IMG/VR virus record: IMGVR_UViG_2865671049_000004
Coordinates: 14,759 to 78,758 of that record
DNA length: 64,000 bases
Direction: 5' to 3' (one strand)
Source: a virus
Lineage: Duplodnaviria > Caudoviricetes
Shown: positions 6,371 through 48,200 of the stretch, one piece after another
Position numbering within the stretch: position 1 is the first letter of the stretch
Layout: each line of letters begins with the position of its first letter
Translations under genes and position numbers: made by a program
The notes under the pieces: model-generated
What the model saw: only the letters and a program-made list of their open reading frames with translations
What the model was told of the DNA's origin: nothing
Database searches by the model: none

Positions 6371-7056
6371 CCGAGCCCACCACCGACCTCGCCGCCCTGC
6401 TCGGCCAACGCGTCACCGTCACCGGCCCCAACGGCAGCACGTGGGCCGGCACCCTCACAGCCCTCGCCGACCAGCCGACTGCCGTCATCGACCGACCCGA
6501 CGGTGGACGCGTCTCCCTGCCGCAGAGCTACACGTACACCGTGGTGTCCCGCCCGGAGGACGAACTCCGCGAGCAGCTGGCCGCCGCCGAAGCCCGCATC
6601 GCCGCCGCCCGGGCGCTGCACTATGCCGAGGGTTCCCAGTGGGGCGGCCTGCAGTGCTACCTGTGCCGCGACCCGTACCCGTGCGCCACGGTGACCGCGC
6701 TCGACACCTCGACCGCCGCCTTCGCCCTGCCTGTCGACGTCCTCGGCGCGCTCGTTCGAATCGCCCGCCACGTTTCCGCTGGCCGTGACGCTGTCGGCGC
6801 CCAGGAGCCGTACCCGGACGTGGCCGCCCGGTGGGCGCTGGGCCGGCTCGACGACGTCGGGCTCCTTGCTCGGCTCGACGGTCACACCTGCGCGGATGGT
6901 GAGCCGTGTCCGGCTCATGACGAGATCGCCGACACCCCGGCCGCACCGTGCGACCACCGGAACCCGAAGCGCCTCGCCTGTCGGCCCCTCGACCTCGCCG
7001 TCGTCTGCGCCTGCGGCACCGAGGTCACAGCCGGTCTCCGACCGCACCGGCGCTGA
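6367..7056 (+). CDS. Mosaic hypothetical protein
   Basis: 229 aa with several small Cys-containing modules (CYLC..YPCAT). Confidence 0.65.
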   Translation: MTEPTTDLAALLGQRVTVTGPNGSTWAGTLTALADQPTAVIDRPDGGRVSLPQSYTYTVVSRPEDELREQLAAAEARIAAARALHYAEGSQWGGLQCYLCRDPYPCATVTALDTSTAAFALPVDVLGALVRIARHVSAGRDAVGAQEPYPDVAARWALGRLDDVGLLARLDGHTCADGEPCPAHDEIADTPAAPCDHRNPKRLACRPLDLAVVCACGTEVTAGLRPHRR

Positions 7057-7176
7057 CCTGGCAGTAACGATGTGGCAGCCTCGCGTGACGGCCCGAATCG
7101 TTCCTGCCGACCGGGCCATTTTCCGTGACCTTTTCGGGCTCTGGCCGGGCATTTACCAGCTCTGTACAACGGACTC

Positions 7177-7374
7177 ATGACCAACCCCGAGTACTTCCCG
7201 ATCAGCGCCGCGCACCTGCGGAACTTCTTCGACGCCGACGGCAAGCCCCTTGCCGGGCGGAGCAAGTGTCCGACGTGCGGCAAGACCGTCTTGTTCCAGC
7301 TGGACTTCTCGAACGGGCAGGTGATGCGGTTCCGCAGTCCCTGCCACGCCTTTGAGGTGCCGACGCCCAGTTGA
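7177..7374 (+). CDS. Small Zn-ribbon hypothetical protein
   Basis: KCPTCGK; preceded by a 120-bp promoter-like gap. Confidence 0.55.
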   Translation: MTNPEYFPISAAHLRNFFDADGKPLAGRSKCPTCGKTVLFQLDFSNGQVMRFRSPCHAFEVPTPS

Positions 7375-7465
7375 TCGTTGGCGTTCCTCAACGCGCCCGA
7401 CCGCTTTGGTCGGGCGCTTTCGCGTGTCAGGTCCGGTGGAACGGTGGACTCGGTACGCTCTGCCG

Positions 7466-7825
7466 GTGACTGAGACACCTGCTTCGTTCGCTGCCCTGCG
7501 TGCTGCCACCGACGCCAATGGCGGTGTTCATCGGACGACCGTTCGGACGCTTCGCAACCTGGTTGGCCAGTCCCGGATGAGTCGGGGCGTAGCGGAGAAG
7601 ATCGAGCTGAACCTCAACGCGGTGGGGTTGCGGTACCTGCCGCCGCAGATTCCTGAGGGGCAGGACGACGTGGTGGTGCTGCACACTGACGCCGAGGGGC
7701 TGGCTTCGGTGATCAGCCTGGTGCGGCGGATGGCTGCTGCGCCCGCGGATGATCGTCGGTCGGTGATGACTGCTTCGCAGTTGAGCTGGGAGTTGCGGCG
7801 GTTGCAGGGTGGGGCCGGCTCGTAG
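7466..7825 (+). CDS. Hypothetical protein (moron-like)
   Basis: MTETPASF...LQGGAGS*; start chosen within ORF 7352-7825; followed by a strong hairpin. Confidence 0.55.
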   Translation: MTETPASFAALRAATDANGGVHRTTVRTLRNLVGQSRMSRGVAEKIELNLNAVGLRYLPPQIPEGQDDVVVLHTDAEGLASVISLVRRMAAAPADDRRSVMTASQLSWELRRLQGGAGS

Positions 7826-20101: not shown

Positions 20102-21493
20102 TCACTCGCGTGTCATGTCTACGAAGCGGGAGTAGTGACCTTGGAACGCCACGGTGATCGTGGCGGTAGCGCCGTTCCTGTGCTTGCCGACGATGACGTC
20201 CGCCTCGCCGGCCCGGGGAGATGTCTTCTCGTAAGCGTCCTCCCGGTGAAGGAGGATCACCAGATCCGCGTCCTGCTCAAGTGATCCCGACTCACGCAGG
20301 TCCGAAACCATCGGGATCTTCTCCGCGCGCAACTCAGGGCCGCGGTTCAACTGCGCCAACGCGATGATCGGCACATCGAGTTCCTTCGCGAGGAGCTTCA
20401 GGCTCCGCGAGATGTACGACACCTCGACCTGCCGCGACTCGAAACGCCGGTTGCTGCCGGAGCCGAGGAGCTGCAGGTAGTCGATGACGATCAGCTTCAG
20501 GCCCTGCTTCTCCTTCAGGCGACGGGCCTTGGCCCGGATCTGCGACAGGTCGAGGTTCGGGGAGTCGTCGATGTACAGCGGCGCACCGGTGACGTCGGGC
20601 ATGCGGCGGGCGATGCGCGTCCAGTCGTCGTCCTCCAGGACCCCGGCGCGCATGTTGTGCAGGCCGACGCGGGCTTCGGCGGACAGCATCCGCATGTTGA
20701 TCTCGTTGCGGGACATCTCCAGGGAGAAGATCACCGACGGGAGGTTGTGCTTGATGGAGCAGGCCCGCAGGAAGTCGTTAGCGATCGTCGACTTCCCCAT
20801 CGCCGGCCGGGCGGCGACGATGATGAACTGGCCGCCCTGCCAGCCCTGCGTGAGGGCGTCGAGGTCGTTGAAGCCGGTGGGCACGCCCGTGAGCTTGCCC
20901 TTGTTCTCGGCGATGGCCTCCAGGAAGTCGAGAGTGCCTTCCATGGACTCGGCGATCAGGTGGAGACCTTCCTCGGCCTGTTCGGCTTCGACGGCGGTGA
21001 TCTGCGCCTGGATGTCGGCGATGATCTCCTTGGGGTCTCCTGCGCCGGACAGGAGGTTCTGGGTGGCGCGCATGGTGGCCTGCGCGAAGTCCCGGGCGAC
21101 GAAGCGTTCGCGGACGATCTCGGCGTAGTACTCGCCGTTCGCCGCGGTCGGCACCGCGGCGACGAGCCTGTGCAGGTACGGGGCGCCGCCGGCGCGGACC
21201 AGTTCCCCGGACTTGAGGAGCGCCGCCGACACGGTGATTGGGTCGGCGACTTCGCCGGCACCGTGGAGCTCCATGATCGTGTTGTGGATGAGCTCGTGCG
21301 CGGGCCGGTAGTAGTGCTTGCCCTTGACGATCTGTCCGATGTCGTCGATGACCTTGCGGTTGAGGAGCATCGCACCGAGGACGGCCTCCTCGGCGTCCTG
21401 GTCGTGCGGGGCGGTGTAGTTGAGGCCGTCGGGTCGGCCGCCGCTAGCGGTGTCGTCGCGGTCGTCGTCGAACGGGTTGGTGTCGGTGGTCAT
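20102..21493 (-). CDS. dnaB: Replicative DNA helicase DnaB
   Basis: AEEAVLGAML; GVPTGFNDLD; AARPAMGKST; FSLEMS; IVIDYLQLL; QLNRGPE; SDLRESGSLEQDAD. Confidence 0.97.
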   Translation of the reverse strand: MTTDTNPFDDDRDDTASGGRPDGLNYTAPHDQDAEEAVLGAMLLNRKVIDDIGQIVKGKHYYRPAHELIHNTIMELHGAGEVADPITVSAALLKSGELVRAGGAPYLHRLVAAVPTAANGEYYAEIVRERFVARDFAQATMRATQNLLSGAGDPKEIIADIQAQITAVEAEQAEEGLHLIAESMEGTLDFLEAIAENKGKLTGVPTGFNDLDALTQGWQGGQFIIVAARPAMGKSTIANDFLRACSIKHNLPSVIFSLEMSRNEINMRMLSAEARVGLHNMRAGVLEDDDWTRIARRMPDVTGAPLYIDDSPNLDLSQIRAKARRLKEKQGLKLIVIDYLQLLGSGSNRRFESRQVEVSYISRSLKLLAKELDVPIIALAQLNRGPELRAEKIPMVSDLRESGSLEQDADLVILLHREDAYEKTSPRAGEADVIVGKHRNGATATITVAFQGHYSRFVDMTRE

Positions 21494-22434
21494 GCTGCTT
21501 CTCCAGCTTCGGTGCGGATGCGGCGGGCGACGGCGGCGGGGTGGCAGTCGTCGCAGGGGACGAGCTCGTTGTCCCGGGCGGGGTCCTTGCGCATGCGGTG
21601 GTTGGGGTCTTGGCAGTGGCCGCACCAGTCGGAGCGACTGTCGACGGCCTTGCGGACAGTGGGGACGGTGGAGCGGTCGCAGTGCTTCGCGAGGTCGGTC
21701 CAACCGTTCGCGACCAGTTCGCGAGCCCGGTCGCAGAGCCACGCCAGGGGGACGCCCGCGGCCAGACGCTCGGCCGCGTCGTCGAGGAGCTTGCTGCGGG
21801 AGTCCCCGAACAGCGGCCTACCGAGAGCTTCCTCGTAGGCGGCAAGGACCCTGGCGGCCTGGCCCGTGAAGAGATCGTTCTCTCTCTCCTCCGGGTCCAC
21901 AGGAGGCTCCACGGCGGCCTGCCGGGGCAGTTGAGGAGGAGAGAGAGTCTTCTTCCGACTGGTGTGCTTGGAGTTGTTCTTCTTATGCGGCAGATCAGCC
22001 ACCGTAGGTTGAGCCACCGCTGGTTCAGCCACCGTAGGCTGACCCAACGTAGGCTCAGCCTGCGTAGGCTCAGCCACCGCAGGTTCTGACCTGCGGTTTT
22101 CCAGCTCCAGAGCGCCGATTGCGGACTCGGGCTGGTCGGTGATGAAGTACACAGCGCCACCGAGGGTGCCGTTCGTGTTCCGCAGCCGGGTGCGCTGGAG
22201 GTACCCCAGCGTTTCGAGGTTGCGCAGCGACGTTTTGATGGCCGTGATGCCGTCGGTGGGGGAGCAGGCGGCGATGGATTCGGCGCTGACGCCGTAGCCG
22301 TCGCGGTGGGTGCTGATCAGCCCGAAGACGCCCTTGTCGCGGAAGGAGAGCCGCGTGTCCCGGAAGAGGGCGTTGCGGATCTGGGTGAACGCATCGGCGG
22401 CCATCGGGCCGCGGCGGATCCGTCCGTAGTTCAC
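21490..22434 (-). CDS. Phage replication initiator (N-terminal wHTH) containing iterons
   Basis: FTQIRNALFRDTRLSFRDKG...LRNLETLGYL; directly upstream of dnaB; internal 5-aa repeats. Confidence 0.75.
   Translation of the reverse strand: MNYGRIRRGPMAADAFTQIRNALFRDTRLSFRDKGVFGLISTHRDGYGVSAESIAACSPTDGITAIKTSLRNLETLGYLQRTRLRNTNGTLGGAVYFITDQPESAIGALELENRRSEPAVAEPTQAEPTLGQPTVAEPAVAQPTVADLPHKKNNSKHTSRKKTLSPPQLPRQAAVEPPVDPEERENDLFTGQAARVLAAYEEALGRPLFGDSRSKLLDDAAERLAAGVPLAWLCDRARELVANGWTDLAKHCDRSTVPTVRKAVDSRSDWCGHCQDPNHRMRKDPARDNELVPCDDCHPAAVARRIRTEAGEAA
21997..22086. repeat. Six tandem 15-bp iteron-like repeats (candidate origin)
   Basis: AGCCACCGTAGGTTG / AGCCACCGCTGGTTC / AGCCACCGTAGGCTG / ACCCAACGTAGGCTC / AGCCTGCGTAGGCTC / AGCCACCGCAGGTTC next to an AT-richer stretch at 21971-21987. 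Confidence 0.75.
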
Positions 22435-26148: not shown

Positions 26149-26847
26149 ATGGAACACAACGTCATCACCCTCGACGGACAGCCCTACCCGACGCGGAACA
26201 ACCCGCCTCGGCCCATCCTCGGCTGCGGCAGCCGCGACCTCTACAACCTCCCCGACGACCAGTACCGCAGGGTCGTCGCCATCCACGAAGCCGGCCACGC
26301 CATCGCCCACCTTGCCGGCGGCAACGCTCACCTCATCCACGCCAGCATCTCCGACGACCTCGACGCGGAGATCACCGGCACCGTCAAGGCCTGGTCCTAC
26401 GACCTCCACGCACCCGCCGCAGTCATCACAGACTGCGCCGGCGAGCGAGCCGTCGACAAGTGGCTCCACCTCTCCGGCCTGTGGACGGACGAACGCGCCA
26501 TCGCCGCCGAGATCGGCGCCCGATCCGACCGCGCCCTCGCACTCAACGTGCCCGGCATGACCCAGGCCCTCCTGCGCGGCATGCACACCCCCACCGACGA
26601 CCTCCTCGCCGCCCACTGGCCCAGCGTCGAGGCCGTAGCCGAAGCCCTCATCAGCGCCCGGCACCTGACCGGCGACCAGGTCGCTCGCATCACCGGCCTG
26701 TCCAACCGGGCCCGACCCGCCATCACCCACCTCACCTCCTCGAAGGAGACCGTCATGGCCGACCAGCAGACCACCACCCAGCCCGAGCCCGCCCCGGCCC
26801 CGCAGGAGCAGCCCACCCAGAGCCGCGTCCCCCTCGACATCGTCTGA
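26149..26847 (+). CDS. Zn-metallopeptidase (M41/FtsH-protease-domain-like)
   Basis: VAIHEAGHA zincin motif; AGERA; SDRALA; HWPSVEAVAEAL...LTGDQV. Confidence 0.7.
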   Translation: MEHNVITLDGQPYPTRNNPPRPILGCGSRDLYNLPDDQYRRVVAIHEAGHAIAHLAGGNAHLIHASISDDLDAEITGTVKAWSYDLHAPAAVITDCAGERAVDKWLHLSGLWTDERAIAAEIGARSDRALALNVPGMTQALLRGMHTPTDDLLAAHWPSVEAVAEALISARHLTGDQVARITGLSNRARPAITHLTSSKETVMADQQTTTQPEPAPAPQEQPTQSRVPLDIV

Positions 26848-26936
26848 CCCCCCCGCTGGCCGGTGCGCGACCAACCCGCACCGGCCAGGCCATGACATGC
26901 ATATGCCATTACAGCCACTCGCCGAAGGGACGTGCC

Positions 26937-28310
26937 GTGACCGAGCCCGACCTCTCCACCGACCGCTGGCTCCCCATCACCAGCGTCCTGCCCCCTGCCA
27001 CGCCCCAGCCCAAGCCGGCTGCCGACAAGCGCATCCAGCGCATGACCGCCCGCGCCGCCGAGAAGCGCGCCAACCGCCACGACGCCCTCCAGCTCCGCGC
27101 CGAGGAGCGCCGCACCCTCCGCGAGGAGCGCAGCGCGGCCCGCACCGAGGCCCGCGAACTGCGCGCCGAGAAGCGCGCAGACCGCACCGAAAGCGCCCAC
27201 CGCGCCAAGGACCGCGCCACCGCCCTCGGCCGCGGCGTCCTCGTCACCGGCCCAATCCTCGCCCCCATGGCCGTCGCCTGGACCGGCCAGTCCCAGTTCG
27301 CCATCCAGATCCTCGGCTGGGCCTTCGCCGCCAGCGTCCTCTACGCCGCCGCGTACGAGCTGACCACCGTCTACTGGGCCTGGCTCTACCATCAGGCCCG
27401 CACCGACGGCGACAGCGGCTGGGAGTACCGACTCGGCACGTGGGTCTTCGCGGCCGGCGCAGCGGTCCAGCAGTGGTGGCACTACTCGGACCACTGGGCA
27501 GCCACCCCCCGGGCCGTCACCTACTCGGTCATGTCCGCCGTCGGCGTCCTGCTCTGGGAAGGCCGGGCCCGCTTGATCCACCGGCGCAAGATGCGGGCCG
27601 AGAACAAGCTGGCGCCGGCCCGGCCCAGGATCGGCGTGGCCCGCTGGGTCCGCTACCCGGTCCGGTCCTGGACCGCCTGGTCGCTCATCACCCTCGAAGG
27701 CCACCAGACGCTGGACGCCGCGTGGACCGCCGCGGACACCGCCGTGCGGTCCAGGAAGACGGACCGCACAGACCGGACCGGACGCCGGTCCACCTGGTGG
27801 GCCGTGCAGCGGACCGACGAACCGGACCGTAAGTCGCCGGCCGCCGTGGACCGGCCCGGCCGGACCACCCTTCCGGTCGCTGGACCGGACCGGGCCGCAG
27901 CTGTCCGGACCGAGCACGTGGATCTCACCGAGTCGGTCCGGACCACACGTCGTGGACCGGACCGGGCCAGCGGGACCGGACCGCGAGGATCCACCGGTCC
28001 GGACCACACGGACCGGACCGGAATGTCCGGCACGGACCGTCAGCGGACCGCCGGGTCCAGCAAGACGGACCGGACCGCCCCCGCAGGCGACGTACCCAGC
28101 ACGGACCTGCCGCCCGCGGACCGGACCGAAGCGGACCTGGTCCTCAACGAGACCGAGCAGGCGGCCATCGACCTCCTGCAAGCCGAAGCCCGGTCCATCA
28201 GCAAGCGGTCCATCGCCGACACGGTCCGGGCCAAACTCGGCCGGTCCATCGCCTCGGACCGGGCCGCCGAAATCGCCCGCCACTACCGGACCCTTCGGTC
28301 CGCCGCCTGA
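26937..28310 (+). CDS. DUF2637-like (Spd-type) membrane protein with a repeat region and C-terminal HTH
   Basis: Coiled coil, about 4 TM helices, APARPRIG..RW..YP.RSW.AWSL, T/D/R/G/P repeat region, C-terminal ISKRSIADTVR..GRSIASDRA. Confidence 0.7.
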   Translation: MTEPDLSTDRWLPITSVLPPATPQPKPAADKRIQRMTARAAEKRANRHDALQLRAEERRTLREERSAARTEARELRAEKRADRTESAHRAKDRATALGRGVLVTGPILAPMAVAWTGQSQFAIQILGWAFAASVLYAAAYELTTVYWAWLYHQARTDGDSGWEYRLGTWVFAAGAAVQQWWHYSDHWAATPRAVTYSVMSAVGVLLWEGRARLIHRRKMRAENKLAPARPRIGVARWVRYPVRSWTAWSLITLEGHQTLDAAWTAADTAVRSRKTDRTDRTGRRSTWWAVQRTDEPDRKSPAAVDRPGRTTLPVAGPDRAAAVRTEHVDLTESVRTTRRGPDRASGTGPRGSTGPDHTDRTGMSGTDRQRTAGSSKTDRTAPAGDVPSTDLPPADRTEADLVLNETEQAAIDLLQAEARSISKRSIADTVRAKLGRSIASDRAAEIARHYRTLRSAA

Positions 28311-28440
28311 CGGTCCACCCCCAGACCGGACCGGACCGCCATCACCGAGGAGAGACCATGACCACCCCGCCGCCGTTCCACCTCCCCCGCCCGGCCCGGT
28401 CCGCCGACAGCAATGCCGGACCGCGCCGGACCCGGACCGC
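27660..28440. repeat. Dense GG(A/T)CC(G) array spanning the 3' half of the DUF2637-like gene, the intergenic gap and the start of traA
   Basis: Hand count of about 34 GGACC and 14 GGTCC in about 780 bp, in several reading frames. Confidence 0.85.
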
Positions 28441-28954
28441 CCCCACCAGCGGGCCCGGCCCGCAGTCCGTCACCAACAACCGCACCCGGCAGGGAGGCGG
28501 CTTCAACCCCACCCTCGGCTTGAACCTCAACTTCGCCAAGGGCGCTCCGCAGGCCGGGACCCCCAGCCCGGCCCCCGCGGCTGGCCCGGGCGCCCCCGCC
28601 GCCGGCCGCGGCACCCCCGGAGCGTCCTTCATGTCCAACGAGGACATCCGCGCGTTCTCCGAGCACCTCCGCAAGGGCGCCCGCAACCGGGCCGTGGAAC
28701 GAGCCATGGACGCCGAACAGCTCGAAGCGGTCCTGCGTCACATCCCCACCCAGGACGGATCCATGGGCGGTGCCCGACTCCGGGCCCGCCGTGTCTCCCG
28801 CCACCTCAAGAAGATCGCGAAGGCGGAGCAGGCCATTGCAAAGGCCGCCGCCGCGCTCTACGCCCAGTTCGAGCAGGAATACGAGGCGAACCTGCGCAAG
28901 GTCGGCAAAGCCCGCGGCCCGCAGCCCACCCGCTTCACCTTCGGCGCCTCCTGA
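28358..28954 (+). CDS. traA: Streptomyces plasmid transfer protein TraA-like
   Basis: FMSNEDIRAFSEHLRK.AR.RA.ERAMDAEQLEAVLRHIP...RARARRVSRHLK..AKAE; directly upstream of traB. Confidence 0.65.
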   Translation: MTTPPPFHLPRPARSADSNAGPRRTRTAPTSGPGPQSVTNNRTRQGGGFNPTLGLNLNFAKGAPQAGTPSPAPAAGPGAPAAGRGTPGASFMSNEDIRAFSEHLRKGARNRAVERAMDAEQLEAVLRHIPTQDGSMGGARLRARRVSRHLKKIAKAEQAIAKAAAALYAQFEQEYEANLRKVGKARGPQPTRFTFGAS

Positions 28955-29024
28955 CACCCCTGACACCGCACCCGACCTGCACTGACACCCTCTGACACCC
29001 CGGAGTGACATCGTGACCGACACC
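28951..29024 (+). repeat. CTGACACC direct repeats upstream of traB (candidate TraB recognition sequences)
   Basis: CTGACACC at 28951, 28960, 28982, 28992; degenerate GTGACATC (29005) and CCGACACC (29017). Confidence 0.8.
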
Positions 29025-30998
29025 GCCCCGGCCGCCGCGAGGAAGGCCCTGCAGCACCCCCGCACCAGGCCCTGGCTCGTCGTCGCGGCCGAACTCCCCG
29101 CCACCTTCACCACCCACTACGTCTGGGGCAACAGCGCCCTCGCCGGCGCCGGCCTCACCCTCGCCGCCGGGGCCGTCACCGCCGCCACCTGGTTCGCCAG
29201 CCAAGGAAGCACCCACCAGCGGCGCGTCCACGCCACCGCCACCGCGGCCCTCGCCACCGGCTACCTCGTCATCGGCACCGCCGCCAACCCCTACGACCCC
29301 ACCCTCGTATCCACGCTGGTCATCGGCGGTGCCACCCTCGCCGGCACGTGGAACATCCGCCAGGTCCTCCGCGTCAACCCGGACACGAAGGCCATCGAGA
29401 AGGCCCCCGCCGAGGCCGGGATCCTCACCAAGTCCATCGGCGCCGCGAAGGTCCTGCTGCGTGGGAAGCCGAAGGTCGAGGCGAACAAGGTCACCGCCGA
29501 ACTGCAGCTCGCCCCGGGCGAACTGTCCACCGACGAACTCGGCAACCGCACCAAGCAGATCGCCGGTGAGCTGGGCGTTTCCGCCAACAGCATCAAGATC
29601 CTGCCCGACCCGGACCGTGCTGACCGCGCCACCCTCATCGTCGTCCCCGAGGACATGCTCAAGAAGACCACCCCGTGGCCCGGCCCGTCCTGCCTCGGCG
29701 ACTCCATCACCGAGCCCGTCGAGATCGGCATCTACGAGGACGGCGAGGTCGCCGTCCTGTGGTTCCCCGCCGGCCCCGGCCGCAACGCCACGCACTTCCT
29801 CACCGCCGGGATGAACGGCGCGGGGAAGTCCGCCGGCCAGTCCGTCGCCATCACCGAAGTCCTGACCAGGCGAGATGTCATCGTCTGGGCGATCGACCCC
29901 AGCAAGGGCCTGCAGACGTTCGCCCCGTTCCTGCCCTACCTGGACTGGGTGGAGATGACGATGTCCGGCGGCGAGGCGATGATCGCCGCCCTCGGCCAGG
30001 TCATCACCGCCCGCGCCAACGAGATGGGCAAGCACGGCTACAAGAACTGGACCCCCGAGGTGTACGAGCGCCTCGACATGCCGTACATGGTCGTGTGGAT
30101 CGAGGAGGCCGCGAAGTTCTTCCGCGAAGGCACCGAGATGGAAGGCCTCGTCATGGAGGCCCGCTCCGCCGGGATCTCCGTCATCATCAGCCTCCAACGC
30201 CCCTCCGCCACCTCCATGCCCACCGACGTCCGTGAGCAGCTCGGCGGCGCCCTCGTCTTCGGAGTGAAGGGCTCCACCACCGCCGACATGGCCCTTCCCG
30301 AGGACGTCCGCGACGCCGGCGCCCGCCCCGAGGTCTGGCAGAACCGCAAGCCCGGCTACTGCTACCTCGTCGCCCCCGGCGTCGACGAGGAGCGCTACCC
30401 CTTCCCCATCCGCACCTACTACATCACCGACGACCAGATCGAAGGGACCCTCGCCCTCGCGCCCCGCCCCACCGCCGACCCGGTCACCGCCCGCGCCGCC
30501 GGCGAGGCCTACGCCAACCGAGCCATCCACCTCCCCGACGGCGTCTACACCACCCCCACCAGCGCAGACACCATCACCGACGTGGAGCAGCAGGACATCA
30601 TGGACGACGAGGACCAGCGCATCCAGGCCGCCGTCGATAGGGAACTGGTCCTCGACGGTGCCGACGACGACGGCTCCCCGAGCCCCGACGTCGACCCCGA
30701 GCAGGAGATCGCCGCCCCCGCGGTCCTCTGGTCCTTCGGCCAGGCCCCGCCCGCCAGCGCCGAGGTCACCACCGAGCAGGCCCTAGGCGCGGTCCTCCTG
30801 CTCCTGGAGGTCTTCCGCGACGAGGGGCGCACCATCATCGGCCCCAAGGACTTCATGCCGCACCTGCCCGCCATCGGCCGCTCCCGCGCATGGCTCTCCC
30901 CGCAGCTCGCCGACCTCGGTGAGGCTGGCATCCACCTGCAGCCGACCGGGCGGCCCGGCGAGTACCACCTCCTCGACCCGCAGTTCGCCGACGCCTGA
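29013..30998 (+). CDS. traB: TraB, FtsK/SpoIIIE-like conjugative dsDNA translocase
   Basis: N-terminal TM helices; Walker A AGMNGAGKS; Walker B VVWIEEA; ARSAGISVIISLQRPS; C-terminal wHTH. Confidence 0.9.
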   Translation: MTDTAPAAARKALQHPRTRPWLVVAAELPATFTTHYVWGNSALAGAGLTLAAGAVTAATWFASQGSTHQRRVHATATAALATGYLVIGTAANPYDPTLVSTLVIGGATLAGTWNIRQVLRVNPDTKAIEKAPAEAGILTKSIGAAKVLLRGKPKVEANKVTAELQLAPGELSTDELGNRTKQIAGELGVSANSIKILPDPDRADRATLIVVPEDMLKKTTPWPGPSCLGDSITEPVEIGIYEDGEVAVLWFPAGPGRNATHFLTAGMNGAGKSAGQSVAITEVLTRRDVIVWAIDPSKGLQTFAPFLPYLDWVEMTMSGGEAMIAALGQVITARANEMGKHGYKNWTPEVYERLDMPYMVVWIEEAAKFFREGTEMEGLVMEARSAGISVIISLQRPSATSMPTDVREQLGGALVFGVKGSTTADMALPEDVRDAGARPEVWQNRKPGYCYLVAPGVDEERYPFPIRTYYITDDQIEGTLALAPRPTADPVTARAAGEAYANRAIHLPDGVYTTPTSADTITDVEQQDIMDDEDQRIQAAVDRELVLDGADDDGSPSPDVDPEQEIAAPAVLWSFGQAPPASAEVTTEQALGAVLLLLEVFRDEGRTIIGPKDFMPHLPAIGRSRAWLSPQLADLGEAGIHLQPTGRPGEYHLLDPQFADA

Positions 30999-31150
30999 CA
31001 CTCCACTGACAGGCCCCTGACCTGCACCGACGGGACCGCTGACACCTTCCTGCCCTGTCAGGACCTGTCAGCGGCCCCGTCAGGCCGCTGACACGGCCGC
31101 CCACCTATAGGAAAGCGATCAACCACCCCGCTGTCAGCCGGCGCTGACAG
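30995..31150. repeat. Candidate clt locus: about 10 CTGAC(A) copies in both orientations downstream of traB
   Basis: CTGACA at 30995, 31006, 31039, 31088, 31144; CTGACC 31017; reverse TGTCAG at 31056, 31066, 31132; CGTCAG 31078. Confidence 0.8.
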
Positions 31151-31170: not shown

Positions 31171-31596
31171 ATGACCCGGAATCGACGCCCCCCGCGAGCA
31201 GCCGTCCTTGCCGCAGCCCTGCACTCCTGGACCACCACCACCGCCGCAGGTGACCAGGGCGAACCGGCCACGCGCCTCGCCGTCCGCCAAGGGCCCACCT
31301 GGGAGCACATCGCTACTGCCAGCCTCACCGACGTGCAGGTCACCCGACTGCTCGCGGCGCTGCGTGCCGACCTCGTTCCCGACCAGCCCGCCACTCCGAT
31401 GCAGGTGGCGGCGACCCTCGATCAGTTGCTCGCCGAGTGGCGGGCCGAGGGTCGCCGCATCGTCCGCCCCAGTGACCTTGTCGAGGCGCTGCCCCGGCTC
31501 GGCTGCACGACTGCCGAGCTCGCCGCCCAGCTCGTCCGTCTTGTCGACGACCGCTACTTGCACGAGACCCGCCACCCCGGCACCTACCGCCTCTGA
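31171..31596 (+). CDS. Protein whose C-terminal half is a paralogue of the TraB wHTH domain
   Basis: 25/68 identities by hand alignment to the TraB C-terminus (LL..WR.EGR.I..P.DL...LP..G...L..QL..L...L..T..PG.Y.L). Confidence 0.8.
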   Translation: MTRNRRPPRAAVLAAALHSWTTTTAAGDQGEPATRLAVRQGPTWEHIATASLTDVQVTRLLAALRADLVPDQPATPMQVAATLDQLLAEWRAEGRRIVRPSDLVEALPRLGCTTAELAAQLVRLVDDRYLHETRHPGTYRL

Positions 31597-35905: not shown

Positions 35906-35908
35906 CGC

Positions 35909-37468
35909 ATGCTCGACACCATCACCGAGCCCCTGGACTCCTACCTTGCCGGCGTCGACGCCGAGGCCTTCAACCTCGACCGGTTCCTCGACCAGTACGT
36001 CCCCGACTCCAGGGTCCTGGACGACGCCGAAGGCCGGCGCGCCCTCACCCGCCTCAACCCGCTCCTCTTCGGTCTCGTCTACCTGCGCCACCACCTCACC
36101 GATGCCGAGGGGACTGTGAGTTTCGGCGACGCCCACCTGGACTGGGTGCGCGCCGCTCGACGCTGGATCCGCCCGCCGACCAGACCGGCTGAGCAGCGTG
36201 ACGCCTACATCGCGCCGCGCTCCACCGGGAAGTCCACGATGTGGTTCCTCGTCCTGCCGATGTGGGCCGCCGCGCACGGCTTCGTGAAGTTCATCGCGGC
36301 GTTCTCCGCGTCCGCCGCGCAGGCCGAGGCGCACCTGTCGACGTTCAAGCTGGAGCTCGACAACAACGCGCGCCTGCGGGAGGACTACCCGGACCTGTGC
36401 GCGCCGGCGAAGCGCCCCAACGGCGGGAACGTCGCGGACACGCAGCGGATGTACGTCGCCGCGTCCCAGTTCGCGTTCGCCGCCCGCGGTATGGACTCCT
36501 CCAGCCTCGGCATGAAGGTCGGCTCGCACCGGCCCGACCTGCTGTTGCTCGACGATGTCGAGCCGGATGAGTCGTCATATTCGGCTGACCAGGCAGGCAA
36601 GCGCCTCACGACGCTGAAGGACGCCATCCTGCCGCTCAACATCTACGCGCGGGTCGTGCTGGTCGGAACGGTTACGATGCCAAACAGCATCGTGCACCAA
36701 CTTGTCAAGCACGGCCGCGGCGTGGAGACCGCCGAGTGGATCCGCGACGAGAACTTCCGGGCGCACTACTCGGCGCCGATCATCCGCGCCGACGACGGTG
36801 CTGAGCGCAGCATGTGGCCCGCCAAGTGGCCGCTCGCCTACCTGAAGTCCATCGAACACACCAGGTCCTACGCCAAGAACATGGCCAACGACCCGATGGG
36901 TGCCGACGGCGACTACTGGTGCGCCGAGGACTTCCGCTACGGCACCGAACCCGCCACGCACATGATGCTCAGCATCGACCCCGCCGTCACAGCGAAGGCC
37001 ACGTCCGACTACACCGGGCTGGGCGTCGTCTCCTGGTCCGCCCGGACGAAGTCCTGCACCGTGCACGCCGCGATCCCCGTCCGGATCCCGCCTGGCGCGA
37101 AGCTCCGCGAGCGGGTCCTCGCAGTCCTCGACGAGTTCCCGGAGATCGGCCTGATCGTCATCGAGACGAACCAGGGCGGCGACGCATGGGCGGCGATCCT
37201 GCACAGCATGCCCGTCAAGGTGAAGACCCTGCACCAGCGGGAGCCGAAGGAAGTGCGGGCCGCCCGGGTCCTCAACCACTACCAGCGCGGCCGGGTCCTG
37301 CACGCCAAGCCCCTGCGGGACCTGGAGGAGCAGATGGTTGCGTTCCCGAAGGCACCGCACGACGACCTCGTCGACTGCGTCGGTTCGGCGATCAGCAGGT
37401 TCCTCGACCCGCCGAAGCGGCCCGCGCCGGCGTCGGCGTCGAAGCAGTCATACGTCGGGCGCCGCTGA
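35909..37468 (+). CDS. terL: Terminase large subunit
   Basis: Walker A APRSTGKST; Walker B LLLLDDVE; nuclease SIDPA, IETNQGG, HDDLVD. Confidence 0.92.
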   Translation: MLDTITEPLDSYLAGVDAEAFNLDRFLDQYVPDSRVLDDAEGRRALTRLNPLLFGLVYLRHHLTDAEGTVSFGDAHLDWVRAARRWIRPPTRPAEQRDAYIAPRSTGKSTMWFLVLPMWAAAHGFVKFIAAFSASAAQAEAHLSTFKLELDNNARLREDYPDLCAPAKRPNGGNVADTQRMYVAASQFAFAARGMDSSSLGMKVGSHRPDLLLLDDVEPDESSYSADQAGKRLTTLKDAILPLNIYARVVLVGTVTMPNSIVHQLVKHGRGVETAEWIRDENFRAHYSAPIIRADDGAERSMWPAKWPLAYLKSIEHTRSYAKNMANDPMGADGDYWCAEDFRYGTEPATHMMLSIDPAVTAKATSDYTGLGVVSWSARTKSCTVHAAIPVRIPPGAKLRERVLAVLDEFPEIGLIVIETNQGGDAWAAILHSMPVKVKTLHQREPKEVRAARVLNHYQRGRVLHAKPLRDLEEQMVAFPKAPHDDLVDCVGSAISRFLDPPKRPAPASASKQSYVGRR

Positions 37469-45240: not shown

Positions 45241-48200
45241 ATGAGCTTCAGGGTCGCCGAGGGATTCGTCGAAGTGACGATGGACCGCTCGAAGTACGAC
45301 GCGGACCTCCAGCGGCTCAAGAGCCAGAAGCTCGACCTGCGGGTCCTCGCGAAGCTCGACGACACCGCGGCCCGCACCCAGCTCGCCTCCCTCACCAAGC
45401 CGATCACCCTCAAGGTGCAGGCCTCTCTCGACGACGCCGCGGTCCGCGCCCGCATCGAGCAGCTCAGCGAGACCCTCACGATCCGGCTCGACGACTCCGC
45501 CGCCCGGGCCAGCCTCGACGCCCTCACCCGCGACCGCGTCGTGCCCGTCGTCGCGGTCGTCTCCACCGCGCAGGCCAGCGCCGACCTGCAGCAGCTCACC
45601 GCGCCCCTTCAGGTCGCCGTCGTCCCCGCCCTGCACGTGCCGTCCACGCAGGAGATGTCGGACTACCTGTCGCACCTGCAGCCGCTGTTTGCCGCGGCGG
45701 CATCCTCGGCGGCGTCGGGGGCGACCATCGCCGGCGGTGACATCGGTCCGCGGCTCACCAACTTCGTGGCGTCCGCGTCGGCGCCGATCGAGATCCCCAT
45801 CACCGCGAAGATCTCGTTCCTGGCGCAGTTCCGCGTCAACCGGTGGCGCCGCCAGATCAGCGACAGCATCAGCGTCTCCGTCGTGCCGCGGCTCGATGCC
45901 ACCGCGGCAAGCGTGGTGCGCTCCGAGCTGCAGGCCTTCGAGCCGCCGATCGACGTCCCGGTCCGACCCGAATGGGACAGCGCTGCGGCGGCGATCGTCG
46001 AGGCGCACCTGCACGCCCTTCAGGATCCGCTGCAGATCCCGGTGGAGCCGGACTGGGACTCCGCTGCGATGCCGGTGCTTGCCGCGCACCTGGAGCAGCT
46101 CCGCGAGACGATCAACGTCACGGTGACGCCCGAGTTCGACGAGGCCGCCCGGCACCTCGTCGCCGCGCACCTGGATGCTTTCCGGATCCCCGTCGACGTG
46201 CCCATCAGGCCGACGTACGACGACGCAGCGGGCGCGACGGTGTGGCAGCGCCTCCACCGGCTCGCCAACCCCATGGCCGCGGTCGTCCAGACCGAGCTCG
46301 CCAGCGTGCCGTTCATGCTCGCCGGCACCTTGCTGGACCGCTTGGCTCGGCGCCGCACCGCCGAGGTCGACGTCCGCGTCGAGCAGACCCAGCTTCCGGC
46401 GCTCACCCACTCCCTCGACCAGGTCGGCGCGAAGGCCCGGGCCGGAACAGCCGGCTTGAGCGTGTTCGCCGGCGCGAGCCGCCTGCTGATGGCGAGCGCC
46501 GCGGGGGCGATCCCCACCCTGGCCTCGCTCGGCCAGGCGATCATCTCCATGGGGCCGGCCGCAGCCGTCGCGGCCCCCGCCATCGGCTCCCTCATCTCCA
46601 TCTTCGGAGCCCTCAAGATCGGCCTCAGCGGGATCAGCGGCGCCTTCAAGCAGGCCTTCGCCCCCGCCGCCGGCGGAGCAGGAGGCGCTGCCGGCGCCAC
46701 CCACGCCCTCGCCGACGCCCAGCAGCAGCTGAAGACGGCGATCCGCGACGCCGGCGACGCCAACCGGCACGCCATCCAGCAGGTCGCCGCCGCCGAACGG
46801 GACCTCACCACCGCACAGCGACAGGAACGCCAGGCACAGCTCGACCTCATCGCCGCCCGCAAGGACGCCGCGCAGCAACTGGAGGACTACAAGCAGAAGC
46901 TCGTCGACAGCGAGCTCGACCACCGTCAGGCCGTCCTCGACGTCCAGCAGGCGAAGGAGGATCTCGACAAGACCCTCGCGGACCCAAAGGCGACGGAGCT
47001 GCAGAAGCAGCAGGCGCAGCTCGCGTCCGACCAGGCCGTGCAGCACCTGAAGGAGCAGGAGACCGCGCAGGCCCGCCTCAAGGAGGAGGCCGCGGCCGCC
47101 GCGGCCGCGGGCGTGGACGGCAACCAGCGGGTCGCGCAGGCGACGCAGGATGTTGCCGACGCACAGCAGGACGTCACCGACAAGACGCTGGCCCTGTCCG
47201 AGGCACGGATCTCCGCCGACCGCACCGCGGAGGATGCGGCGCTGCGGATCGCTCAGGCGCAGCAAGGCATCGCCGACGCCATGCAGTCGGCGGGCGGCGG
47301 GGCTGCCGGGATGGCCAATGCGATGGCGAAGCTGGCGCCGTCGGCGCGGGAGTTCGTTGACGCTGTCGTCGCGCTGAAGCCGGCGTGGGACGCGCTCAAG
47401 ATGGACGTGCAGCAGCAGTTGTTCGAGGGTGTCGGCGCGAAGCTCACGTCGGTCGCCAAGCAGGTGCTCCCCGACCTGCGGGCCGGTCTGGTGGGCACGG
47501 CCGGAGTACTGAACCAGATGGGGCTGCAGGCCCTGGATGCCGTCGACAAGCTCAGCAAGACGGGCACGCTGAAGCAGGCGTTCGCCGGGATCAACGAGGG
47601 CTTGAAGCCCTTGCAGTCCGTCCCCGCCAACCTGCTGACGATGTTCGGGCAGTTGACCGCCGCAGCGGGACCGGCGTTCCTGAAGGTCACGTCGGCAATC
47701 GGCGAGACGATCGGCTCCTTCACGAAGCGGCTGGGCGATGCGTTCGCGAGCGGCCGGCTGACGGAAGCCATCGATGCGGCGATGGGGCTCGTCAAGCAGT
47801 TCGGGAAGATGCTCGGCGATGTGGCCGGAACGCTCGGCAACATCCTCAAGGCGGTGGCTGGTGCGGGCGGTGACGCGCTCGGTGTCCTTGGCGAGGTCTT
47901 CTCGGAGCTGCGGCGGATCACGGCGATGCCGGAGGTTCAGGGCGCGCTGACCAGCCTGTTCAAGACTTTGAACCTGCTGGCCGCCACGGTGGCGCCGCTG
48001 TTCGGTCAGGCTCTGATGGCGCTCGGGCCGGTGATCCAGGCGCTGGCGCCGCCAGTTCAGGCGCTGATCACGGCGCTGGGCTCCGCCCTGTCACCGATCA
48101 TCGGGGCGCTCGGGCCGATCCTGGTGACGGCGGCACAGGCCATCGGCACGGTCGTCACGGCGTTGCTGCCGCTCCTGCCGGTGATCAGTCAGCTGGTGGT

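What the first reader, a model, noticed from the sequence alone, without database searches (positions are those of the whole stretch)
27660..28440. DNA-level GG(A/T)CC array written into the Spd-like gene just before its own C-terminal HTH
Seen: about 48 GGWCC sites (34 GGACC, 14 GGTCC, hand count) in about 780 bp against roughly 4 expected at about 72% GC. They fall in different reading frames (encoding TDR, RT, GP), on both strands, and continue past the stop codon into the gap and traA, so selection appears to act on DNA rather than protein. The common unit GACCGGAC resembles the pSVH1 TraB site GACCCGGA. Inference: a cis-acting binding array, either a second clt or a centromere-like site bound by this membrane protein's own HTH, which would tether the genome to the membrane for hyphal spread or segregation (possibly standing in for ParABS). 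GGWCC is also the AvaII-type restriction site.
Basis: partly seen in the sequence, partly recalled or inferred. Interest (0 to 1): 0.75.

Follow-up and report, generated by a model that had tools for sequence, protein, structure and literature searches.

The report
Membrane protein gene carrying its docking sites
A Streptomyces plasmid-phage has about 50 copies of the DNA word CGGWCCG written into the end of the gene for a membrane protein with a small three-helix tail. In relatives the word changes exactly when that tail changes, so the gene most likely holds the protein's own docking sites, an arrangement I did not find described in the papers searched.

Summary
The full word is the near-palindrome CGGWCCG. 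It is the only such cluster in the 78.7-kb record.

The sites lie in all three frames and on both strands, and they run past the stop codon into traA. Codon choice is bent to make them: 42 observed, against 12.6 +/- 2.9 for the same protein with window codon usage.

The host gene encodes a SpdB2-like membrane protein (Pfam DUF2637) with a confident three-helix C-terminal domain.

The array is not a second clt:
- pWTY27-type clt words (CTGACACC) flank traB.
- The TraB recognition segment is conserved in relatives whose upstream arrays use other words.
- Close relatives keep the array without this traA-traB.

In 30 loci found through the membrane core alone, three tail classes match three words perfectly (GGACCG, GAGACC, CGAACC). 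One natural swap replaces only array plus tail between otherwise similar plasmids.

Best reading (0.6): a self-contained cassette of a DNA-binding tail and its site array that holds the element's DNA at the membrane for spread or stable inheritance. Binding itself is untested. Other agents of this scan reported analogous arrays on other DNA.

The parts
26937..28310 (+). Gene of the SpdB2-like membrane protein (457 aa from GTG 26937; an alternative ATG start is at 26892). Layout: N-terminal charged coiled-coil-like stretch (aa ~30-95), four hydrophobic helices (aa ~98-250), low-complexity linker (aa ~250-400), C-terminal three-helix domain.
   Evidence: GC3 frame plot shows frame 2 coding from ~26850 to 28310. 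Candidate starts are listed. Pfam DUF2637: E 1.7e-5, 25.2 bits against a cut-off of 22.8, residues 108-253. Translation. The layout matches the published description of pSVH1 SpdB2: coiled coil aa 1-99, four transmembrane helices, C-terminal domain (PMC4447253).
27647..28438 (.). Array of 50 GGWCC sites (core word CGGWCCG). It covers the last hydrophobic helix end, the linker and the three-helix domain of the Spd-like gene, the 47-nt gap and the first 80 nt of traA. Many sites are paired at 5-bp spacing (GGACCGGACC or GGTCCGGACC).
   Evidence: positions, strands, frames; only cluster in the 78.7-kb record; synonymous-codon excess; 5-bp spacing is the commonest in 13 class-A arrays: 135 neighbour pairs.
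28149..28304 (+). C-terminal three-helix domain (protein residues ~405-456), the candidate reader of the array. Invariant IA..VR....G.IA.DRA..IA among class-A relatives. Six GGACCG/CGGTCC sites lie inside the last 180 nt of the gene.
   Evidence: Alignment A1. AlphaFold2 model m46446042285c has helices at 28-39, 46-57 and 63-79 of the 80-aa segment, with block mean pLDDT 93-94 over residues 31-70 and 80-82 in the flanking blocks. Fold search is inconclusive, Z 4-7. Site count.
28311..28357 (.). Gap between the Spd-like gene and traA. It holds three GGWCC sites and the traA ribosome-binding site (GAGGAGAG).
28358..28954 (+). traA (198 aa). The first 80 nt carry four GGWCC sites.
   Evidence: NCBIfam NF041213 plasmid_TraA, E 4.2e-30, 105 bits against a cut-off of 80.
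28951..29000 (+). Four direct CTGACACC words in the traA-traB gap. These are TraB-type words, distinct from the GGWCC array.
   Evidence: The same arrangement occurs in pCQ3, L002 and L003.
29013..30998 (+). traB, a membrane-anchored DNA-translocase-like protein with a Walker A motif (GMNGAGKS) and a C-terminal domain holding the conserved segment GRSRAWLS.
   Evidence: NCBIfam NF041214 plasmid_TraB, E 7.4e-238, 791 bits (just under the 800-bit cut-off). Translation. C-terminal alignment. 37% identical to the transfer protein of pWTY27.
30995..31150 (.). Candidate clt: a cluster of CTGACA(C) and TGTCAG words starting at the traB stop codon.
   Evidence: This is the same place and word as the experimentally defined clt of pWTY27: 16 bp inside the gene plus 159 bp after it, with DC1 TGACACC footprinted by the transfer protein (PMC3583192). 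It is conserved in pCQ3 and L002-L007.

Best explanation
The CGGWCCG array is a cis-acting set of about 50 docking sites for the C-terminal three-helix domain of the SpdB2-like membrane protein in whose gene it is written. Array and domain form one exchangeable cassette.

Shown here:
- The array is a DNA-level feature.
- It is conserved in number but not as protein sequence.
- It belongs with the Spd-like gene and not with traA-traB.
- Its word changes if and only if the C-terminal domain class changes.

Inferred:
- The domain binds the word.
- With four membrane helices and a cytoplasmic N-terminus, the tail is cytoplasmic, so binding would fix the element's DNA to the membrane next to the TraB pump.
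- The likely use is handing DNA over for spread through hyphal cross-walls, or keeping copies in each compartment and spore.
- Sites inside the protein's own gene may help it load in cis, while transcription, translation and membrane insertion are still coupled.
- Because the array also covers the traA ribosome-binding site and start, the same binding may damp traA-traB expression.
For: 1. DNA-level signal in the window.
- Sites lie in three frames, on both strands, in the gap and in traA.
- 42 GGWCC occur in 220 codons. The same protein recoded with window codon usage gives 12.6 +/- 2.9 (maximum 24 in 5000 draws). Permuting the gene's own synonymous codons gives 18.7 +/- 2.9 (maximum 29). Arg CGG is used at 69% against 30% in reference genes, and Gly GGA at 43% against 9%.
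- There is no regular tandem structure.

2. Conservation.
- Short-form relatives at 85, 77, 60 and 58% amino-acid identity keep 39-60 GGWCC.
- Codons overlapping sites are better conserved than other tail codons, both as amino acids and among same-amino-acid codons, in all 4 pairs.

3. Word tracks tail. Thirty loci were found through the membrane core or on plasmids.
- Class A (..SIA[ST]DRA.., 13 loci including the window): 32-47 GGACCG per tail.
- Class B (..STA[AG]KRL.., 4 loci): 28-39 GAGACC.
- Class C (..TTA[HY]HRL.., 13 loci): 19-39 CGAACC.
- Words of the other classes: 0-8 per tail.
- The three words are related (GGACCG, AGACCG, GAACCG).

4. Independence from the core phylogeny. The classes are intermixed on the core tree, with at least 6 changes. 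L009(A)/L014(B) are sisters at 100/98 and L016(B)/L033(A) at 100/100.

5. Natural swap. L009 and L014 are 65-80% alike in DNA on both sides. They differ only over linker + array + C-terminal domain + 50-150 nt past the stop.

6. Arrays cross the stop codon. There are 161 own-word copies in the 150 nt after the stop over 30 loci (35.8 per kb). The 5' parts of the same ORFs hold only 0-10 copies in 1.6-2.5 kb.

7. Not TraB.
- The TraB recognition segment and the CTGACA clusters are conserved, while the upstream words differ: GGACC, TGATGCG, GAGCGC, CGGAAC, CGTCACG.
- L063 and L066 keep the array without this traA-traB or any CTGACA word.

8. Tail fold. It is a confident three-helix bundle. The class-C tail gives a sub-threshold TetR_N helix-turn-helix hit, E 0.012.

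9. Precedent. pIJ101 SpdA2 binds palindromes that lie inside its own coding region, and removing them synonymously lowers segregational stability (PMC4170104). pSVH1 SpdB2 is needed for intramycelial spread, interacts with TraB, and is reported there to bind double-stranded DNA (PMC4447253).
Against: - No binding has been shown. DNA binding by the tail rests on a three-helix model whose structural matches are weak: best Z 7.1 to a ribosomal stalk dimerisation domain, and DNA-binding three-helix domains only at Z 4-5. No Pfam HTH model hits the class-A tail.
- Array and tail are physically adjacent, so their perfect association could be linkage within one recombining block rather than function.
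- Arrays can grow by duplication: L008/L017 show long tandem peptide units. Part of the codon excess could therefore reflect copying, not selection.
- The conservation test is only modestly significant (p 0.056, 0.029, 0.0064, 0.48), and aligners tend to place words on words.
- A 7-bp word with copies 5 bp apart is an unusual geometry for a helix-turn-helix dimer.
- pSVH1 SpdB2 was reported to bind DNA non-specifically (cited in PMC4447253).
- The biological role (spread, partition or regulation) is not resolved by any test here.
Confidence: 0.6

Rival explanations
1. Low-complexity linker DNA made by slippage and unequal recombination. A disordered spacer between membrane core and tail tolerates any sequence. 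Each lineage has amplified a short unit by chance, and the word rides along with the adjacent tail by linkage. The DNA has no function of its own.
For: - The linker is low-complexity and evolves fast: non-site amino-acid identity is 0.44-0.45 at 58-60% overall identity.
- L008/L017 show obvious recent tandem units (TTDRGPDRT...), so duplication does act here.
- Copying of DNA units would also give a synonymous-codon excess.
- Array and tail are adjacent, so linkage is expected.
Against: - The window array has no regular tandem structure.
- The same exact word is kept at 32-60 copies across relatives whose tails are only about 31-36% identical over 80 aa.
- Sites use all frames and both strands, which 5-, 6- or 7-nt slippage inside an ORF cannot do without breaking the frame.
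- Sites lie inside the folded three-helix domain coding region (six in the window).
- Sites continue into non-coding DNA and the next gene in most loci, at 35.8 per kb over 30 loci.
- All 30 loci have an array, and none has lost it.
Confidence: 0.15
2. The same tail-to-word binding exists, but its purpose is regulatory. The protein coats the 3' end of its own gene and the traA start, and so throttles read-through and translation of traA-traB (autoregulation or a roadblock). It is not a tether.
For: - The array covers the gap, the traA ribosome-binding site and the first 80 nt of traA.
- Arrays in most relatives extend 50-150 nt past the stop.
- As background knowledge, expression of Streptomyces transfer genes is harmful to the host and tightly repressed (kil-kor). 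GntR-type repressor genes are called within about 3-4 kb on the 5' side in the relatives L063, L065 and L066.
Against: - 30-50 sites spread over 700-800 nt of coding DNA is far more than an operator needs.
- L063 and L066 keep the array although different genes follow.
- A polytopic membrane protein is an odd choice for a repressor.
- This reading is compatible with the best explanation rather than exclusive of it.
Confidence: 0.12
3. A second clt: the words are read by the C-terminal domain of TraB, as the first reader's alternative proposed on the likeness of GACCGGAC to the pSVH1 word GACCCGGA.
For: - The array lies next to traA-traB.
- It is made of short GAC-containing repeats, as TraB recognition sequences are.
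- TraB has a conserved C-terminal domain.
Against: - The window already has pWTY27-type words (CTGACACC) before and after traB, at the place where pWTY27 clt was mapped and footprinted.
- TraB's segment GRSRAWLS and the CTGACA clusters are conserved in pCQ3 and L002-L007, whose upstream arrays use five different words.
- L063 (85% identical Spd-like protein, 60 GGWCC) has no traA, only a distant 28%-identical translocase fragment, and no CTGACA word. L066 has none of these either.
- Class-A arrays also sit on large linear plasmids with a different FtsK-type translocase.
Confidence: 0.04
4. An RNA-level element: the many mutually complementary GGACC/GGUCC words fold the 3' end of the mRNA into a stable structure that controls its stability or traA translation.
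For: The 801-nt stretch folds at -416 kcal/mol against -375 +/- 9 for dinucleotide shuffles, z -4.6.
Against: - This excess follows trivially from a near-palindromic word.
- Class-B arrays are mostly one-stranded (for example L042: 24 + and 4 -) and non-palindromic, yet are kept at the same place.
- No covariation analysis supports any particular structure.
Confidence: 0.03

Closest known systems
SpdA2 / sps of Streptomyces lividans plasmid pIJ101 (Thoma et al. 2014, PMC4170104)
   Same: - A plasmid 'spread' protein that binds DNA sequence-specifically at sites lying inside its own coding region.
- The sites show up as a repeated peptide motif (SRDD/E).
- Removing them by synonymous changes leaves transfer intact but lowers segregational stability.
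- It is the only published case I found of the 'own gene carries own sites' logic in this plasmid world.
   Different: - SpdA2 is a small soluble protein (117-163 aa) with an N-terminal DNA-binding region and 1-3 copies of one 12-bp palindrome (CGTCACGTGACG) that is conserved across plasmids.
- Here the protein is a polytopic membrane protein with a C-terminal three-helix tail, there are 20-60 copies of a 6-7-bp word, and the word differs between tail classes.
- No sps palindrome is present in the window.
SpdB2 of Streptomyces venezuelae plasmid pSVH1 (Thoma et al. 2015, PMC4447253, which cites Tiffert et al. 2007)
   Same: - Architecture: N-terminal coiled coil, four membrane helices, C-terminal domain of about 200 aa.
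- Location in the transfer/spread gene block next to TraB.
- Homologues occur on plasmids and actinophages.
- Reported to oligomerise, interact with TraB, bind double-stranded DNA and be required for intramycelial spreading.
   Different: - SpdB2's DNA binding was reported as non-specific, and no site array in spdB2 has been described.
- Direct sequence homology to pSVH1 SpdB2 was not tested here, because the record is not in the collections.
clt loci with TraB recognition repeats (pWTY27 DC1 TGACACC, PMC3583192; pSVH1 GACCCGGA, from my own knowledge of Vogelmann et al. 2011)
   Same: Short repeated words clustered near the transfer genes, read by a small C-terminal DNA-binding domain of a membrane-anchored protein, with the word specific to the element.
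   Different: - clt has 4-10 copies in mostly non-coding DNA at the 3' end of traB and is read by the translocase.
- The window has such a clt (30995-31150).
- The GGWCC array is upstream, about five times larger, intragenic, and uncoupled from TraB in relatives.
Centromere and membrane-recruitment arrays: ParB-parS, ParR-parC, SopB-sopC, R388 StbA-stbDR, Bacillus Noc-NBS and RacA-ram (from my own knowledge, not tested here)
   Same: Many copies of a short word, bound by a dedicated small DNA-binding domain encoded next to the array, used to position DNA. Noc and RacA bring DNA to the membrane or the cell pole.
   Different: - No partner ATPase and no ParB_N domain were found in the record.
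- The sites lie inside its own ORF.
- There is no sequence or clear fold relation to any of these proteins.

Membership tests
Pfam DUF2637 (PF10935) | Match to the family model above the curated cut-off | tested here: met
   E 1.7e-5, 25.2 bits against a cut-off of 22.8, residues 108-253. The match is marginal: relatives such as L019 score nothing, L002 scores 49 bits and L005 16 bits.
SpdB2-type spread proteins (pSVH1) | N-terminal coiled coil, four membrane helices, long C-terminal domain | tested here: met
   Read from the translation and set against the published description. No transmembrane predictor was run; the helices were judged by eye.
SpdB2-type spread proteins (pSVH1) | Sequence homology to pSVH1 SpdB2 | not tested
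   The pSVH1 record is not in the collections.
SpdB2-type spread proteins (pSVH1) | Gene lies in the transfer/spread block beside the TraB translocase | tested here: met
   traA and traB follow directly. FtsK-type genes lie 3-4 kb downstream on the linear plasmids.
SpdB2-type spread proteins (pSVH1) | Needed for pock formation and intramycelial spread; binds TraB and peptidoglycan | not testable with these tools
   Genetic and biochemical properties (PMC4447253).
clt / TraB recognition repeats | Sits at or just after the 3' end of the translocase gene | tested here: not met
   The array ends about 575 nt before the traB start. The CTGACA cluster occupies the clt position at 30995-31150.
clt / TraB recognition repeats | Word goes with the translocase's C-terminal recognition segment | tested here: not met
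   The recognition segment is conserved while the upstream words differ. The array is kept without this TraB.
clt / TraB recognition repeats | Required in cis for transfer | not testable with these tools
   Needs mating assays.
SpdA / sps | 12-bp palindrome CGTCACGTGACG (with or without a central T/A) | tested here: not met
   No exact copy in the window or the record; one copy with a central extra base lies far away at 46116.
SpdA / sps | Binding sites inside the binding protein's own coding region | tested here: met
   42 of the sites lie in the ORF. That the protein binds them is inferred, not shown.
SpdA / sps | Small protein with the conserved N-terminal SpdA DNA-binding region | tested here: not met
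   The protein has 457 aa, is membrane-embedded, and carries its candidate DNA-binding part at the C-terminus. No alignment to a SpdA sequence was made.
ParABS-type partition systems | ParA-type ATPase and a ParB_N-domain protein encoded with the centromere | tested here: not met
   No AAA_31 or ParB_N match in the 78.7-kb record. The record is estimated 88% complete, so absence from the element is not proven.
Helix-turn-helix / winged-helix DNA-binding domains | Recognisable HTH fold or family match in the C-terminal domain | tested here: inconclusive
   - Confident three-helix bundle.
- Foldseek gives nothing at E <= 0.001.
- VIA-align gives Z 7.1 to the ribosomal stalk P1, and Z 4-5 to ArgR N-terminal domain, Myb/GARP, homeodomain, Fur and FtsK gamma.
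- No Pfam hit for class A; the class-C tail hits TetR_N at E 0.012, below the cut-off.

The most novel reading that the evidence does not exclude
A one-gene, plug-in 'membrane centromere' of mycelial actinomycete mobile DNA. A polytopic membrane protein's exchangeable C-terminal domain reads 20-60 copies of a short word written into the 3' end of its own gene. The protein would load in cis during coupled transcription, translation and membrane insertion, and would anchor plasmid, plasmid-phage and linear-plasmid DNA at the membrane or cross-wall. That would serve both spread and stable inheritance without a ParA-type motor. Different cassettes (words GGACCG, GAGACC, CGAACC and others) would act as specificity or incompatibility types.
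Probability: 0.35. Interest if true: 0.85.

Novelty: new variant of a known kind. Interest (0 to 1): 0.7.

Why it matters
How Streptomyces plasmids, and the phages that carry their transfer genes, move double-stranded DNA through a compartmented mycelium and keep it there is only partly understood. TraB and clt explain entry. The Spd proteins are needed for spread, but their DNA contacts are unknown, and many of these elements have no recognisable partition system.

A membrane protein that carries a sequence-specific reader together with its own site array would give the Spd machinery a defined DNA handle. That would explain why spd mutants affect both spread and stability.

It would also supply a natural set of orthogonal protein-word pairs: three classes are shown here, and more appear in pCQ3-like elements. 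These can be tested directly by gel shift, ChIP and domain swaps.

For genome annotation, the finding warns that these 'low-complexity linkers' are probably cis elements, and that synonymous recoding of such genes may not be neutral.

Tried and rejected
- Second clt / TraB site: rejected (see rivals).
TraA's C-terminal two-thirds are highly similar in W, pCQ3 and L002-L007, whose words differ, and L063/L066 lack it.
- Restriction-site reading (GGWCC = AvaII, CGGWCCG = RsrII): no support found. Elsewhere in the record the word is near its usual density (about 3.3 per kb), and the sister words CGAACC and TGATGCG are not palindromes.
- Regular tandem repeat: not found.
- sps palindrome: absent. 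The L005 array uses only the half-word GTCACG.
- Upstream ORF 26149-26847 as a split-off N-terminus of the long (850-1000 aa) forms: rejected. The long form matches the window only over the Spd-like gene itself.
- Sequence search of the tail against solved structures: one chance-level hit, E 0.37.
- Foldseek and VIA-align searches of the tail model: no decisive match.
- ESM Atlas search of the tail: no usable hit.
- Pfam FtsK_SpoIIIE against the record: no match, although TraB has a Walker A motif; this family is only caught by NCBIfam.
- Fetching pSVH1 by accession: failed.
- Searching the whole contigs of L063/L066 for TraB: these records are not held.
- Literature: no paper in the held library links DUF2637 or SpdB2 genes with internal site arrays.
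- No complex prediction was run.
Full report
**Context.** The window is high-GC actinomycete DNA (69.8% G+C). It comes from a 78,758-nt virus record classed as a provirus and estimated 88% complete.
- It carries a DnaB-type helicase gene (20102-21817, minus strand), a large terminase gene (35906-37468), and a traA-traB pair of the pSN22/pJV1/pWTY27 type (NCBIfam NF041213 and NF041214).
- The only close DNA matches among plasmids are traA-traB of pCQ3 and pCQ4 of Streptomyces sp. W9 and W75, at 80%.
- No tyrosine integrase, large serine recombinase domain, ParB_N or ParA-type (AAA_31) match was found in the record.
- The element therefore looks like a Streptomyces plasmid-phage of the pZL12/pCQ3 kind. 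However, the protein collection places its Spd-like gene on a 540-kb contig, so its physical state is open.

**The observation.** The hand count is exact.
- 34 GGACC and 14 GGTCC lie in 27660-28440, out of 251 in the window. The rest of the window has 3.2 per kb, which gives about 2.5 expected here.
- The cluster really spans 27647-28438, with 50 sites.
- Most sites extend to GGACCG/CGGTCC, and 21 are CGGACCG, so the word is the 7-bp near-palindrome CGGWCCG. 'Both strands' therefore means only the central base.
- Sites use all three frames. The decamer GGACCGGACC is read as TDRT, GPDR or RTGP.
- Three sites lie in the 47-nt gap and four in the first 80 nt of traA.
- It is the only cluster in the 78.7-kb record, and it has no regular tandem structure.

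**The host gene.** A GC3 frame plot shows that the long ORF from 26460 is not the gene. Frame 2 becomes coding only at about 26850, so the start is ATG 26892 or GTG 26937.
- The 457-aa product has a charged N-terminal stretch, four hydrophobic helices (Pfam DUF2637, just above the cut-off), a low-complexity linker and a C-terminal domain.
- This is the published layout of pSVH1 SpdB2.
- AlphaFold2, run on an alignment with six relatives, gives a three-helix bundle for the last ~55 residues, with block mean pLDDT 93-94 over the core.
- Structural matches are weak and mixed: Z 7.1 to a ribosomal stalk domain, and Z 4-5 to several three-helix DNA-binding domains including FtsK gamma. 'HTH' is thus an inference.

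**Is the signal in the DNA or in the protein?**
- For the same amino-acid sequence, codons drawn from the window's usage give 12.6 +/- 2.9 GGWCC (maximum 24 of 5000). Permuting the gene's own synonymous codons gives 18.7 +/- 2.9 (maximum 29). The observed count is 42.
- Arg CGG and Gly GGA are strongly over-used there.
- Taken alone, this could also result from copying of DNA units. The comparative data decide the matter.

**Not the clt.**
- The window has four CTGACACC words between traA and traB, and a cluster of CTGACA/TGTCAG that starts at the traB stop codon (30995-31150).
- In pWTY27, whose transfer protein is 37% identical to this TraB, the clt was mapped to the last 16 bp of the gene plus the next 159 bp. 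The protein footprints on the TGACACC repeats.
- The same words follow traB in pCQ3 and in five further relatives (L002-L007). The TraB C-terminal segment GRSR(A/S)W(L/I)S is conserved in all of them.
- Yet each of those elements has, in the 3' half of the membrane-protein gene upstream of traA, an array of a different word:
  - GGACC (window)
  - TGATGCG (pCQ3)
  - GAGCGC (L002)
  - CGGAAC (L003)
  - CGTCACG (L005)
- Conversely, the closest relative of the window's Spd-like protein (L063, 85% identity, 60 GGWCC) is followed by different genes. It has only a 28%-identical fragment of another translocase and not one CTGACA word in 9.4 kb. L066 (58%) likewise has neither.
- The array therefore travels with the Spd-like gene, not with TraA, TraB or clt.

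**Word and tail change together.** To avoid picking relatives through the repeat itself, I searched two samples of about 400 Streptomycetaceae genomes. One search used the whole protein and one used the membrane core alone. Plasmid hits were added. Thirty loci have an intact ORF; most are 790-1070 aa with a long Ala-rich N-terminal extension. Their C-terminal domains fall into three classes, and each class has its own word:

| Class | Tail motif | Loci | Own word | Copies per tail |
|---|---|---|---|---|
| A | ..SIA[ST]DRA.. | 13 (including the window) | GGACCG | 32-47 |
| B | ..STA[AG]KRL.. | 4 | GAGACC | 28-39 |
| C | ..TTA[HY]HRL.. | 13 | CGAACC | 19-39 |

- Words of the other classes occur only 0-8 times per tail.
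- The three words are one or two bases apart (GGACCG, AGACCG, GAACCG), as expected for diverging specificities in one family.
- In all classes the sites use several frames and both strands.
- Over the 30 loci, 161 own-word copies lie in the 150 nt after the stop codon. That is 35.8 per kb, whereas the 5' parts of the same ORFs hold only 0-10 copies in 1.6-2.5 kb.
- Neighbouring sites are most often 5 nt (class A), 6 nt (class B) or 7 nt (class C) apart, in direct or inverted pairs.

**Is the association more than shared descent?**
- A maximum-likelihood tree of the membrane core intermixes the classes. At least 6 changes are needed, and starred branches force at least 3 for A and 3 for B. L009(A)/L014(B) are sisters at 100/98 and L016(B)/L033(A) at 100/100.
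- L009 and L014 amount to a natural swap experiment. Their DNA is 65-80% alike upstream, through the core, and again in the downstream genes. Similarity is lost only over L009 4617-5211 and L014 (L067 reverse strand) 6910-7603. That interval is the linker, the array, the C-terminal domain and 50-150 nt past the stop.
- The only protein segment that changes with the word is therefore the tail itself.
- Adjacency means linkage is not excluded. But a cassette made of a domain plus its sites is what a functional pair would look like.

**Conservation within class A.**
- The window tail is only 31-36% identical over 80 aa to the tails of the long forms, yet all keep the same word in similar numbers.
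- Among the close short forms (L063-L066), tail codons that overlap a site are better conserved than other tail codons. Amino-acid identity is 0.60-0.87 against 0.44-0.78. The share of identical codons among same-amino-acid pairs is 0.81-0.94 against 0.60-0.84 (Fisher p 0.056, 0.029, 0.0064, 0.48).
- I treat this as supportive only, because aligners tend to put words on words.

**Mechanism.**
- Shown: a DNA-level array that is conserved, specific to its cassette, and independent of TraB.
- Inferred: the three-helix tail binds the word.
- Inferred: with four membrane helices and a basic, charged N-terminus, the tail should be cytoplasmic. Binding would then hold the element's DNA on the membrane beside TraB.
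- Published work makes this plausible. pIJ101 SpdA2 binds palindromes inside its own gene, and their synonymous removal lowers stability. pSVH1 SpdB2 is required for spread, contacts TraB and binds DNA.
- Placing the sites in the protein's own gene would favour loading in cis while the nascent chain is being inserted. This is my speculation.
- Because the array covers the traA ribosome-binding site, a regulatory side effect is possible.
- An RNA-structure reading has only trivial support (z -4.6).

**Novelty and standing.**
- I found no paper in the held library that describes site arrays in DUF2637/SpdB2-type genes.
- Other agents of this scan have already reported analogous arrays with other words (CGCATCA, GAGACG, TGCCAG and others) on other genomes. 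First readers noted GGWCC arrays in two further genomes. I did not use these notes as evidence, but they mean this is a recurrent class rather than a one-off.
- This window adds four things: the class-A word, a 30-locus three-class table, the separation from TraB/clt, and a clean cassette swap.
- I rate it a new variant of a known kind (intragenic Spd binding sites; centromere-like arrays), with interest 0.7. Binding and function remain to be shown at the bench.

Noticed in passing
L008 4300-4460 and L017 (G151:C2:258601-262581): Two records share the same frameshift just after the last membrane helix. The membrane core and the tail (array plus three-helix domain) are therefore separate ORFs, yet the array is the densest seen (56 GGWCC in 600 nt). 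The tail ORF shows long recent tandem units (TTDRGPDRT..., ASGPDRT...).
   Followed up: partly
window 31171-31596: The ORF after the clt-like cluster resembles the TraB C-terminal domain. In L064, TraB residues 597-653 match its homologue at 42%. The ORF is conserved after traB in L064 (83%) and L065 (68%). Its role is unknown.
   Followed up: partly
window 28951-29000; L001, L002, L003 just before traB: Four CTGACACC words sit directly before the traB start in the window, L002 and L003 (two full copies in pCQ3), but not in L004, L005 or L007. This could be a TraB autoregulatory site or a second part of clt.
   Followed up: no
L005 3230-3570: The array of this relative uses (C)GTCACG, which is half of the SpdA palindrome sps (CGTCACGTGACG). 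It has no full palindrome.
   Followed up: partly
L004 2350-2950: In this relative the membrane protein's linker is a long Glu/Arg-rich stretch (ERERE...) and the gene is separated from traA by two other ORFs. No clear single-word array was found there.
   Followed up: no
whole record G000 (78,758 nt): No integrase, large serine recombinase domain, ParB_N or ParA-type (AAA_31) match. Yet the record is classed as a provirus, and the same protein is on record on a 540,556-nt contig. Whether the element is integrated, or part of a large replicon, is unclear.
   Followed up: partly
L019 and other long forms, first ~400 residues: The linear-plasmid forms (790-1070 aa) carry an Ala-rich, charged, coiled-coil-like N-terminal extension of about 400 aa that the window protein lacks. 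Several have a precomputed PF28068 hit.
   Followed up: no
window 29013-30998: TraB has a Walker A motif but gives no Pfam FtsK_SpoIIIE match, in the protein or in a six-frame search of the record. Only the NCBIfam model recognises it, at 791 bits, just under its 800-bit cut-off.
   Followed up: no
L066 7827-8273: A relative that keeps the Spd-like gene and array but lacks traA-traB carries a gene with a PycTM (Pycsar effector-like) domain a few genes downstream.
   Followed up: no
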